A DNA stretch of 64,000 nt from NCBI RefSeq assembly GCF_055900595.2, contig NZ_CM148325.1; one strand, given 5' to 3'. A program made the position numbers and the translations under genes. Positions 63,227-63,942 of the stretch are shown here, one piece after another. The notes beneath the pieces are model-generated. The model was not told where the DNA came from. It saw nothing but the letters and a program-made list of their open reading frames with translations, and did not search any database. The first letter of the stretch is position 1. Every line of letters starts with the position of its first letter.

Positions 63227-63811
63227 TCATTCATTAGTCATGTTTGATTTTAACATCATATCTTTGTAAAAATTAATTTGGGTGTCATTCGTAGGGAAAA
63301 AACCATCACGTAGCATGTAGGATCTGACATGCCAAAACATGTCCTCGGCCATCGATAAAGGATCACATTCAGTGAAATAATTGTCCAGGATATCGAATAT
63401 TTTCTCATCATCAGAGTCACATTGATTTTCATAGTTTAATATTTTAGCTTGTTCAAGCACCATAAAAATAAATACATTATTAAAGCTTATGAAATTATTT
63501 ATATTTGTATTGCAAAAAATCAATGAATAAGAACATTGATCGTTCTTACCGTTACTTATGTGATAGATTTTTCTGCTTTTTTCCTCAATTGCAAAATGTC
63601 CTTCTAGATCGTGACCAAAGACAATGTATTTTTTGCTATTTGCAGTGAAATAATACAAAGCATTGTGATAAAATGTTAAGGCATAATTATCATACGGTTG
63701 TATAAGGTAAACCTTATCTCTTATTTCTTTTAATAAGTTTGATTTTGAATCAGATTTGTTAATTTCACAAATTTTTTCATTTATCTTAACGTTAAATGGA
63801 TTTAATGACAT
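63227..63811 (-). CDS. Hypothetical protein, AT-rich orphan gene
   Basis: 194 aa ORF with AGGAAG ribosome-binding site 7 nt before the ATG; very low GC and Asn/Lys/Ile-rich composition; I recognise no motif. It replaces what I recall at this position in K-12. Confidence 0.55.
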   Translation of the reverse strand: MSLNPFNVKINEKICEINKSDSKSNLLKEIRDKVYLIQPYDNYALTFYHNALYYFTANSKKYIVFGHDLEGHFAIEEKSRKIYHISNGKNDQCSYSLIFCNTNINNFISFNNVFIFMVLEQAKILNYENQCDSDDEKIFDILDNYFTECDPLSMAEDMFWHVRSYMLRDGFFPTNDTQINFYKDMMLKSNMTNE

Positions 63812-63868
63812 AATTATCTTCCTTTTAATTTATCAAGAGCAGCCTGTAAAAGTGAACACCCCATATTA

Positions 63869-63942
63869 CAGGGAAAGATTACGAAAGCCCGCTCCCCCAG
63901 GGAAAGATTACGGTGTGCCTACGGCACACGATGATCTTTCCC
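63869..63942. repeat. Direct 15-bp repeats plus nested palindrome upstream of the orphan gene
   Basis: CAGGGAAAGATTACG at 63869-63883 and 63898-63912; the second copy is part of GGGAAAGATTACGGTGTGCCTACGGCACACGATGATCTTTCCC, with outer arms GGGAAAGAT/ATCTTTCCC and inner arms GTGTGCC/GGCACAC. Confidence 0.6.

What the first reader, a model, noticed from the sequence alone, without database searches (positions are those of the whole stretch)
63227..63942. AT-rich orphan gene with a structured repeat in its upstream region
A 194 aa ORF of very low GC, with no motif I recognise, lies beyond yddH where I recall different genes in K-12. Its upstream region carries two copies of CAGGGAAAGATTACG 29 bp apart, the second embedded in a 43-bp nested palindrome. 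By its position next to what I recall as the rhsE neighbourhood, it could be an orphan immunity-type gene, but that is speculation. The repeat and palindrome could be an operator or an RNA structure.
Basis: partly seen in the sequence, partly recalled or inferred. Interest (0 to 1): 0.5.

Follow-up and report, generated by a model that had tools for sequence, protein, structure and literature searches.

The report
Orphan immunity gene beside IS scar
The AT-rich gene is an already-catalogued SUKH-4 "immunity" gene left stranded at the end of an E. coli Rhs/type VI toxin locus after an insertion sequence destroyed its partner toxin gene, and the repeat and palindrome upstream are the leftover ends of that insertion sequence, so the finding is real but ordinary.

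Summary
A 194-aa ORF (63227-63811, minus strand) has 28% GC against 47% for the window. CAGGGAAAGATTACG occurs twice, 29 bp apart, and the second copy starts a 47-bp palindrome (63898-63944).

The ORF is a SUKH-4 (PF14435) immunity protein. RefSeq already names it so, and it occurs in 8 of 5426 complete E. coli genomes. It is the last gene of a variant rhsE-locus island: vgrG, DcrB-like, PAAR-Rhs, immunity, orphan Rhs-CT, SUKH-4, yddH.

In Salmonella and other relatives its homologues directly follow XOO_2897-type deaminase toxins. Here only the last 17 codons of that toxin survive (63814-63868). The orphan Rhs tip upstream is an unrelated Tox-REase-7 nuclease that has lost about 38 C-terminal residues and its own immunity gene.

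The two relics are joined by ends of ISAs1-family (H-rpt/ISEc1) insertion sequences: a solo 29-nt right end plus a 47-bp element that has both ends and no body. E. fergusonii carries a full ISEc1 at the identical right junction.

So the orphan-immunity guess is right and the operator/RNA-structure guess is not. Orphaned alleles differ at 12 nonsynonymous and 1 synonymous sites, so current function is unproven. Low interest.

The parts
63227..63811 (-). Orphan SUKH-4 family immunity gene (194 aa, 28% GC), with an AAGGAAG ribosome-binding site upstream of the ATG
   Evidence: ORF. Pfam SUKH-4 E 1.2e-5, and 19/22 homologues match PF14435, best 2.7e-15. RefSeq WP_032303003.1 is named 'SUKH-4 family immunity protein'. 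The exact sequence occurs in 286 public contigs.
63814..63868 (-). Relic of the 3' end of the cognate XOO_2897-type deaminase toxin gene: 17 codons NMGCSLLQAALDKLKGR plus TAA, ending 2 nt before the immunity ATG
   Evidence: It aligns with the C-termini of the deaminase toxins that precede SUKH-4 homologues in Salmonella (NMGRSLLQAAIEKFKGR*) and in L009 and L022. The L009 effector C-terminus matches PF14440 at E 2.5e-14.
63869..63897 (-). Solo 29-nt right end (IRR) of an ISEc1/H-rpt (ISAs1-family) insertion sequence; holds repeat copy 1
   Evidence: It is 29/29 identical to the end of the full ISEc1 that abuts the same TAATATGGGG junction in E. fergusonii. It is 28/29 identical to the ISEc5/ydcC and ISEc1 ends in other E. 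coli.
63898..63944 (-). 47-bp palindromic mini-element made of two IS ends with no body. It comprises 31 nt of an H-rpt-associated left-type terminus (including a GTGCC-GTA-GGCAC hairpin), 1 nt, and the 15-nt ISEc1 right end (repeat copy 2)
   Evidence: Repeat and arm structure. The 31-nt left part is 100% identical to a sequence lying about 163 bp outside the H-rpt IRL in the K-12-like rhsE locus, and matches to it occur in about 2800 of 5426 genomes. That sequence has different left flanks in three contigs of Escherichia sp. MOD1-EC7003. The full palindrome occurs only in the same 8 genomes, plus one 85%-similar element elsewhere.
63945..64000 (-). 3' part of an orphan Rhs C-terminal tip encoding a Tox-REase-7 (PD-ExK) nuclease toxin, truncated by the IS end. 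It continues beyond the window end, and the annotated CDS reads into the palindrome and stops at 63908
   Evidence: In the 99.9%-identical L001 the fragment starts with the Rhs core end (TIGR03696, E 5e-17), followed by Tox-REase-7 model positions 1-65 of 84. An intact 180-aa relative in E. coli GF3-3 is 87% identical, and homology stops exactly at the CAGGG IS end.
62497..63066 (+). yddH (flavin reductase), the conserved chromosomal gene bounding the island
   Evidence: ORF; annotation.

Best explanation
The ORF is an orphan SUKH-4 immunity gene at the distal end of a T6SS-associated Rhs toxin island. The island occupies the rhsE locus (yncE-ansP ... yddH) in a rare E. coli lineage. Its original partner was an XOO_2897-type nucleic-acid deaminase toxin encoded immediately upstream with near-abutting stop and start codons (TAA-TT-ATG). 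An ISEc1/H-rpt (ISAs1-family) element inserted 17 codons before the end of that toxin gene. IS-associated deletion or recombination then removed the rest of the toxin. The same events joined the relic to a different orphan Rhs tip, a Tox-REase-7 nuclease, which lost its last ~38 residues and its own immunity gene. In E. coli the IS body was lost as well. What remains is a solo 29-nt right end plus a 47-bp element made only of a left-type and a right-type terminus. Because IS termini are inverted repeats of each other, this produces both the 15-bp direct repeat and the nested palindrome. If the protein still works, it would bind and neutralise incoming deaminase effectors of this type delivered by competitors' T6SS. 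This is inferred from the family and from gene pairing; it was not tested. Shown here: family membership, gene context, the toxin relic, IS-end identity, both truncation points and the shared junction. Inferred: the order of events, any protective function, and expression. Expression would need read-through from the Rhs operon across the hairpin, because no promoter-like site was detected.
For: SUKH-4 membership. Island context in near-identical genomes (vgrG, DcrB-like, PAAR-Rhs, 105-aa immunity, orphan CT, SUKH-4, yddH). Homologues at 70%, 57% and 36% identity directly follow XOO_2897-deam toxins, and the window's 17-codon relic aligns to their C-termini. The Tox-REase-7 fragment covers model positions 1-65 of 84. 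An intact GF3-3 relative shows the breakpoint at the IS end, and its own immunity protein is unrelated to SUKH-4. IS identity: 44 bp match the ISEc1 end with a tandem 29-nt terminus. A full ISEc1 sits at the same right junction in E. fergusonii. The left half of the palindrome is an H-rpt-associated terminus in K-12-like rhsE and yafV Rhs loci and has varying flanks. No Rfam family. No minus-strand promoter-like site within about 1 kb upstream.
Against: The query's own Pfam score is modest (E 1.2e-5), and NCBIfam gives no hit for it. The confident AF2 model (pLDDT 87) has no significant neighbour among solved structures, so the SUKH fold could not be confirmed structurally. Among orphaned alleles 12 of 13 segregating sites are nonsynonymous. 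My binomial estimate is that this fits neutral decay (P about 0.3) and rejects the purifying selection seen between toxin-linked homologues (dN/dS 0.13-0.19; P about 2e-4). The gene may therefore be a not-yet-broken relic rather than a working defence. The exact route to the 47-bp element (internal deletion or transposition of a mini-element) is unresolved. One junction base matches neither parental sequence, and no target-site duplication is visible.
Confidence: 0.85

Rival explanations
1. The SUKH-4 protein is the cognate immunity partner of the Tox-REase-7 toxin fragment directly upstream. On this reading the pair is an ordinary orphan toxin-immunity module that merely acquired a small insertion.
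For: The two genes are adjacent and co-oriented, and RefSeq annotates them side by side as 'putative toxin' and 'SUKH-4 family immunity protein'. SUKH-superfamily proteins are reported next to restriction-endonuclease-fold toxins in general (PMC3113570).
Against: The intact GF3-3 relative of this toxin (87% identity) is followed by an unrelated 179-aa protein (BLASTP E 0.78 against SUKH-4). Three SUKH-4 homologues follow deaminase toxins instead. The 57 bp between the IS end and the ATG encode a deaminase-toxin C-terminus, not a Tox-REase-7 C-terminus.
Confidence: 0.04
2. The repeat and palindrome are a functional cis-regulatory element for the ORF, either an operator or a terminator/attenuator/RNA-stabilising hairpin. 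It may have been co-opted from IS ends.
For: The hairpin is very stable (-28 to -33 kcal/mol, z about -8 to -10). The inner stem followed by CGTAATCTTT is flagged as terminator-like. It lies between the only plausible upstream transcription source and the ORF.
Against: Every part of it is accounted for by IS termini. The full hairpin has no U-tract after it. E. fergusonii keeps the same gene with a whole IS there and no palindrome. No Rfam match. No regulator gene is nearby.
Confidence: 0.07
3. The 47-bp palindrome is a mobile miniature element (a minimal MITE) mobilised in trans by ISEc1/H-rpt transposase and inserted here as a unit, rather than a deletion remnant formed in place.
For: It has IS-type termini in the correct inward orientation. 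A second, 85%-similar mini-palindrome with the same GTGCC-TAC-GGCAC core sits in an unrelated context in strain L1PEag1. Its left terminus occurs with different flanks in several genomes. An IS end followed by a 29-nt solo end recurs beside yafV in 9 other genomes.
Against: There is one copy per genome, and all 8 genomes carrying it have it at this one site. No target-site duplication is visible. Its two arms derive from two different element ends. According to PMC3032704, transposition of H-rpt has not been observed.
Confidence: 0.1

Closest known systems
Orphan rhs-CT/immunity modules ('C-terminal tips') downstream of main rhs genes in Enterobacteriaceae (from my own knowledge: Jackson 2009, Poole 2011, Koskiniemi 2014; described for E. 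coli W in PMC3032704)
   Same: It lies downstream of a full PAAR-Rhs gene and that gene's immunity gene. The orphan tip begins with the last ~40 residues of the Rhs core (PxxxxDPxGL), followed by a toxin domain.
   Different: The array is decayed. The Tox-REase-7 tip lacks its C-terminus and its immunity gene. The SUKH-4 immunity gene lacks all but 17 codons of its toxin. The two halves come from different modules joined by an IS scar.
SUKH-4 group of the SUKH immunity superfamily (Pfam PF14435; Zhang, Iyer & Aravind 2011, PMC3113570)
   Same: It matches the family HMM, and so do its homologues. It is linked to polymorphic-toxin loci, including deaminase toxins, as predicted for the superfamily.
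   Different: It belongs to a small, AT-rich enterobacterial subfamily with only 23 cluster representatives among 1.84 billion. No solved structure exists for comparison.
H-rpt / ISEc1 / ISEc5 (ydcC) elements of the ISAs1 family, classically associated with E. coli Rhs elements
   Same: The termini are identical or nearly so (CAGGGAAAGAT...). The position is the same as in K-12-like strains, between the rhsE-locus toxin array and yddH.
   Different: No transposase gene or IS body is present, only 29 + 47 bp of termini. pptA and ydcC are absent.
Orphan immunity genes and immunity islets that protect against non-kin T6SS effectors (e.g. Serratia Rhs NADase immunity, PMC10539506; gut Bacteroidales orphan immunity, PMC12247911)
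   Same: It is an intact immunity ORF kept without its toxin in a T6SS effector locus. The excess of nonsynonymous change recalls the 'rapidly evolving' orphan immunity genes.
   Different: There is no evidence here of expression or protection. The substitution pattern is equally compatible with neutral drift.

Membership tests
SUKH-4 immunity protein family (PF14435) | Significant match to the family profile HMM | tested here: met
   Query E 1.2e-5 over residues 55-162. 19 of 22 aligned homologues match at E<=0.001, best 2.7e-15. RefSeq/PGAP uses the same name. NCBIfam has no model hit.
SUKH-4 immunity protein family (PF14435) | Encoded immediately downstream of a polymorphic toxin domain | tested here: met
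   Homologues in L007, L009 and L022 start 1-8 nt after XOO_2897-deam toxin genes. In the window only the toxin's last 17 codons remain.
SUKH-4 immunity protein family (PF14435) | SUKH alpha+beta fold | tested here: inconclusive
SUKH-4 immunity protein family (PF14435) | Binds and neutralises its cognate toxin | not testable with these tools
   Needs co-expression or pull-down with an XOO_2897-type deaminase C-terminal domain.
Orphan immunity gene | Intact immunity ORF with no functional cognate toxin gene in the locus | tested here: met
   The ORF is intact. The cognate toxin is reduced to 55 bp. The adjacent toxin is of another family and is truncated. The same holds in all near-identical alleles examined.
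Orphan immunity gene | Maintained by selection or protective against non-self effectors | tested here: inconclusive
   1 synonymous against 12 nonsynonymous segregating sites among orphaned alleles, compared with dN/dS 0.13-0.19 to toxin-linked homologues. This is compatible with neutrality or with diversifying selection.
ISAs1-family insertion sequence (H-rpt/ISEc1) | Terminal inverted repeats beginning CAGGG that match family members | tested here: met
   29/29 and 15/15 identity to ISEc1 right ends, and 31/31 to an H-rpt-associated left-type terminus.
ISAs1-family insertion sequence (H-rpt/ISEc1) | DDE transposase gene between the ends (about 1.3 kb element) | tested here: not met
   Only 17 nt lie between the termini. 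It is therefore a remnant, not an IS.
MITE (miniature inverted-repeat transposable element) | Multiple dispersed copies with target-site duplications | tested here: not met
   There is a single copy at a single site in 8 genomes, one diverged analogue elsewhere, and no flanking duplication.
Intrinsic (Rho-independent) terminator | GC-rich hairpin followed directly by a U-tract | tested here: not met
   The hairpin is present. The full stem is followed by GGGGAGCGGG. Only the inner stem with a weak CGTAATCTTT tail passes the loose scan.

The most novel reading that the evidence does not exclude
The orphan SUKH-4 gene is not a decaying relic but an actively diversifying 'acquired defence' that protects this E. 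coli/E. fergusonii lineage from XOO_2897-type deaminase effectors fired by Salmonella-like competitors. In addition, the 47-bp two-ended element shows that the supposedly inert H-rpt/ISEc1 elements are, or recently were, active remodelers of Rhs orphan arrays, able to leave or mobilise minimal 47-bp derivatives.
Probability: 0.12. Interest if true: 0.45.

Novelty: already known. Interest (0 to 1): 0.18.

Why it matters
It matters little beyond annotation hygiene. The case is a clean worked example of how Rhs toxin arrays decay: an IS insertion separates an immunity gene from its toxin and fuses pieces of two unrelated modules. It also warns that adjacency alone, as in RefSeq's side-by-side 'putative toxin' and 'SUKH-4 immunity protein', can suggest the wrong toxin-immunity pairing. 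Here the true partner family is a deaminase, not the neighbouring nuclease. If the orphan protein were shown to protect against deaminase effectors, it would add an E. coli example to the orphan-immunity literature.

Tried and rejected

2. NCBIfam and PADLOC gave no hit for the ORF.

3. Rfam gave only a sub-threshold chance hit (sR19 snoRNA, 15 bits against a gathering score of 45).

4. The promoter scan found no minus-strand sigma-70-like site between the toxin fragment and the ATG, or within 1 kb upstream. An outward IS promoter could not be supported.

5. A scan of 100,044 species genomes for the left-terminus-plus-hairpin pattern found only 5 stretches: Escherichia sp., Pseudocitrobacter, and a MAG labelled Collinsella whose hit sequence matches the E. 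coli yafV-locus sequence in L014. This terminus variant is narrowly distributed, and no autonomous IS carrying exactly this left end was identified.

6. P0006 context (L021): the 71-aa upstream ORF did not align with the deaminases, so it was uninformative. P0007 had no contig on record.

7. I looked for target-site duplications flanking the 47-bp element and the solo end, and found none by eye.

8. I considered and rejected the idea that the shared GTGATGG left of the IS end in E. coli and E. fergusonii reflects a common left junction. The flanking genes differ (Tox-REase-7 against a CDI_Immunity_Comp-type ORF).

Full report
**Observation**

The window ends with narZ/Y/W/V, yddE, nhoA and yddH, followed by a 194-aa minus-strand ORF at 63227-63811. 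The ORF has 28.4% GC against 47.3% for the window. The 15-mer CAGGGAAAGATTACG occurs exactly twice, at 63869-63883 and 63898-63912, with 29-bp spacing. The second copy opens a 47-bp palindrome at 63898-63944, with 22-nt arms (19/22 complementary) and a 3-nt loop. The 15-mer has no other exact copy in the window. The palindrome folds far better than shuffled sequence, at -28 to -33 kcal/mol and z of -8 to -10. The description is therefore accurate, except that the palindrome is 47 bp rather than 43. Also, the region is not purely intergenic: the annotated upstream CDS ends inside the palindrome.

**What lies beyond the window**

Megablast against 5426 complete E. coli genomes finds the 901-bp end of the window in only 8 genomes, at 99.8-99.9% identity. 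In these genomes, and in Escherichia sp. KS167_9B, the gene order is:

- yncE, ansP, GST fragment
- small ORFs
- vgrG (often a pseudogene)
- DcrB-like protein
- PAAR/DUF6531-Rhs of about 1540 aa
- 105-aa presumed immunity gene
- incomplete 'RHS repeat-associated core' fragment or 'putative toxin'
- 'SUKH-4 family immunity protein'
- yddH

A K-12-like strain has yddH-pptA-ydcC(H-rpt)-IS1 fragment-dsORF-e4-RhsE at the same position.

**The ORF**

- Pfam assigns it to SUKH-4 (PF14435) at E 1.2e-5.
- An exhaustive HMMER search of 1.84 billion cluster representatives finds only 23 relatives.
- In an alignment of 22 of them, 19 match SUKH-4 individually, with a best E-value of 2.7e-15.
- The exact protein is present in 286 public contigs under that name.
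- An AlphaFold model built on the alignment is confident (pLDDT 86.9).

The fold could therefore not be checked independently, and family membership rests on sequence profiles and gene context. SUKH-4 is one of the groups of the SUKH immunity superfamily defined by Zhang, Iyer and Aravind (PMC3113570).

**Which toxin it belongs to**

Homologues at 70% and 57% identity in Salmonella, and at 36% identity in a metagenomic contig, each start a few bases after an XOO_2897-type deaminase toxin. In L009 that toxin is the C-terminal domain of a 1473-aa VgrG/DUF2169-linked effector, with PF14440 at E 2.5e-14.

These toxins end in ...NMGRSLLQAAIEKFKGR* and close variants. The 55 bp between the IS end and the window ORF encode NMGCSLLQAALDKLKGR*, with the TAA 2 nt before the ATG. 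The window thus retains the last 17 codons of the cognate deaminase toxin and nothing more.

**The neighbouring toxin fragment is unrelated**

In the near-identical L001 it begins with the end of the Rhs core (YYDPDCGRF...DPLGL; TIGR03696, E 5e-17). It continues as a Tox-REase-7 PD-ExK nuclease that covers only model positions 1-65 of 84.

An intact 180-aa relative in E. coli GF3-3 is 87% identical up to ...HVTRGG. Similarity then stops precisely where CAGGG begins in the window. The protein downstream of that intact toxin is unrelated to SUKH-4 (BLASTP E 0.78). The side-by-side RefSeq annotation of 'putative toxin' and 'SUKH-4 immunity protein' therefore does not describe a cognate pair.

**The repeat and the palindrome**

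The 44 bp spanning both repeat copies match (95.5%) the end of ISEc1, an ISAs1-family element classically called H-rpt, in nine other E. coli genomes. There the IS right end is also followed by a second 29-nt copy of itself.

In E. fergusonii the 95%-identical SUKH-4 gene is preceded by a full-length, pseudogenised ISEc1. Its last 29 nt and its junction (CCCTG|TAATATGGGG) are identical to those in the window.

The other arm of the palindrome, in gene orientation CAGGGAAAGATCATCGTGTGCCGTAGGCACA, is 100% identical to a sequence for which matches are found in roughly half of complete E. coli genomes. That sequence lies about 163 bp outside the left end of the 1291-bp H-rpt (ydcC) in the K-12-like rhsE locus and in the yafV Rhs locus. 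It occurs with three different left flanks in Escherichia sp. MOD1-EC7003, as expected of a mobile-element terminus. It already contains the small GTGCC-GTA-GGCAC hairpin.

Reading in gene orientation, the window therefore carries:

1. The truncated nuclease tip.
2. 31 nt of a left-type IS terminus.
3. 1 nt that matches neither parental sequence.
4. 15 nt of the ISEc1 right terminus. Items 2-4 together form the 47-bp palindrome.
5. A solo 29-nt ISEc1 right end.
6. The deaminase relic.
7. The SUKH-4 gene.

IS termini are inverted repeats of each other, and two right ends are present. This accounts for both the palindrome and the 15-bp direct repeat. No Rfam family matches.

**Is it a regulatory element or a MITE?**

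The full hairpin is not followed by a U-tract. Only the inner stem with a weak T-rich tail passes a loose terminator scan. E. fergusonii keeps the gene with a whole IS and no palindrome. A dedicated regulatory role is therefore unlikely, although the hairpin may incidentally impede read-through.

The full 47-bp unit is found only at this site in the same 8 genomes. One 85%-similar mini-palindrome with the same core occurs in an unrelated context in strain L1PEag1. No target duplication is visible. I favour a deletion remnant over a mobile miniature element, but the latter is not excluded. According to PMC3032704, transposition of H-rpt has not been observed.

**Is the gene still useful?**

No minus-strand promoter-like site lies within about 1 kb upstream, so expression would depend on read-through from the Rhs operon.

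Between the window allele and toxin-linked Salmonella homologues dN/dS is 0.13-0.17, although dS is saturated. Among the orphaned alleles (E. coli, Escherichia sp., E. fergusonii) there are 13 segregating sites, 12 of them nonsynonymous. With about 101 synonymous and 481 nonsynonymous sites, my binomial calculation gives P of about 0.3 under neutrality and about 2e-4 under omega of 0.15. Family-level purifying selection has therefore lapsed since orphaning.

The changes are mostly conservative and the ORF is intact in every allele examined. Diversifying selection of the kind reported for orphan immunity genes (PMC12247911, PMC10539506) remains possible but is not demonstrated.

**Verdict**

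This is a real feature that is now well explained: an already-annotated orphan SUKH-4 immunity gene at the decayed end of a T6SS-Rhs array, separated from its deaminase toxin by an H-rpt/ISEc1 insertion whose terminal remnants form the repeat and palindrome. Novelty is low. The only new details are the correct toxin pairing, the chimeric origin of the junction, and the 47-bp two-ended IS remnant.

Noticed in passing
window 63107-63152: A 46-bp stretch in the yddH/SUKH-4 intergenic region is 91% identical to an internal segment (about 1.2 kb from the start) of 4.4-kb 'PAAR-like domain-containing' T6SS effector genes. About 30 other E. coli genomes carry such genes in a VgrG-DUF2169-effector arrangement, the same architecture as the Salmonella L009 effector that carries the cognate deaminase. 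It is probably another relic of past rearrangement.
   Followed up: partly
L015 3005-3050 (E. coli L1PEag1, NZ_CP145513.1): A second mini-palindrome, CCGGGCGAGATCATGGTGTGCC-TAC-GGCACGCCATGATCTTTCCCTA, is 85% similar to the window's. It lies between a hypothetical gene and a GAD-like-domain gene near fliJ and fic, which is an unrelated context.
   Followed up: partly
L013 2200-2600 (E. coli SE11) and L014 (strain NDM5): Several left-type H-rpt termini (CAGGGAAAGATCA...) are stacked within a few hundred bp upstream of the ISEc1 copy in Rhs loci. This suggests repeated nested insertions or partial duplications of IS ends.
   Followed up: no
L016 about 9100-9400 (Pseudocitrobacter faecalis): The same IS-type terminus with the GTGCC hairpin is followed by a long tandem array of GTGATAA/GTGATTT heptamers and then an Rhs core-end fragment (orphan tip).
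   Followed up: no
L007 3000-3740 (Salmonella enterica GCA_007022885.1): The orphan deaminase toxin tip upstream of the 70%-identical SUKH-4 gene is itself broken by stop codons and frameshifts, while the immunity ORF is intact. This is a second, independent case of the immunity gene outliving its toxin.
   Followed up: partly
L001 against L002, 13641-20773: Among the near-identical genomes the main Rhs locus differs. AST85 has a 4617-nt Rhs, a DcrB-like gene and a vgrG with an internal stop. E200086 has a shorter 3231-nt Rhs CDS next to a vgrG fragment. The effector locus is therefore degrading in different ways in different strains.
   Followed up: no
window 63227-63811 (model mdb1015b9fb44): The confident AF2 model (pLDDT 87, pTM 0.85) has a six-stranded sheet followed by a helical bundle and no significant match to any solved structure. 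The SUKH-4 group appears to lack an experimental structure.
   Followed up: partly
L004 3837-4973 and 5482 (E. fergusonii): The E. fergusonii version of the locus holds an additional intact ISAs1-family transposase gene and another IRL-type terminus upstream of the pseudogenised ISEc1. It also lacks the narZYWV-side arrangement seen in E. coli, having LacI-type, MR_MLE and tautomerase genes between the yddE-like gene and the nhoA-proximal yddH-like gene.
   Followed up: no
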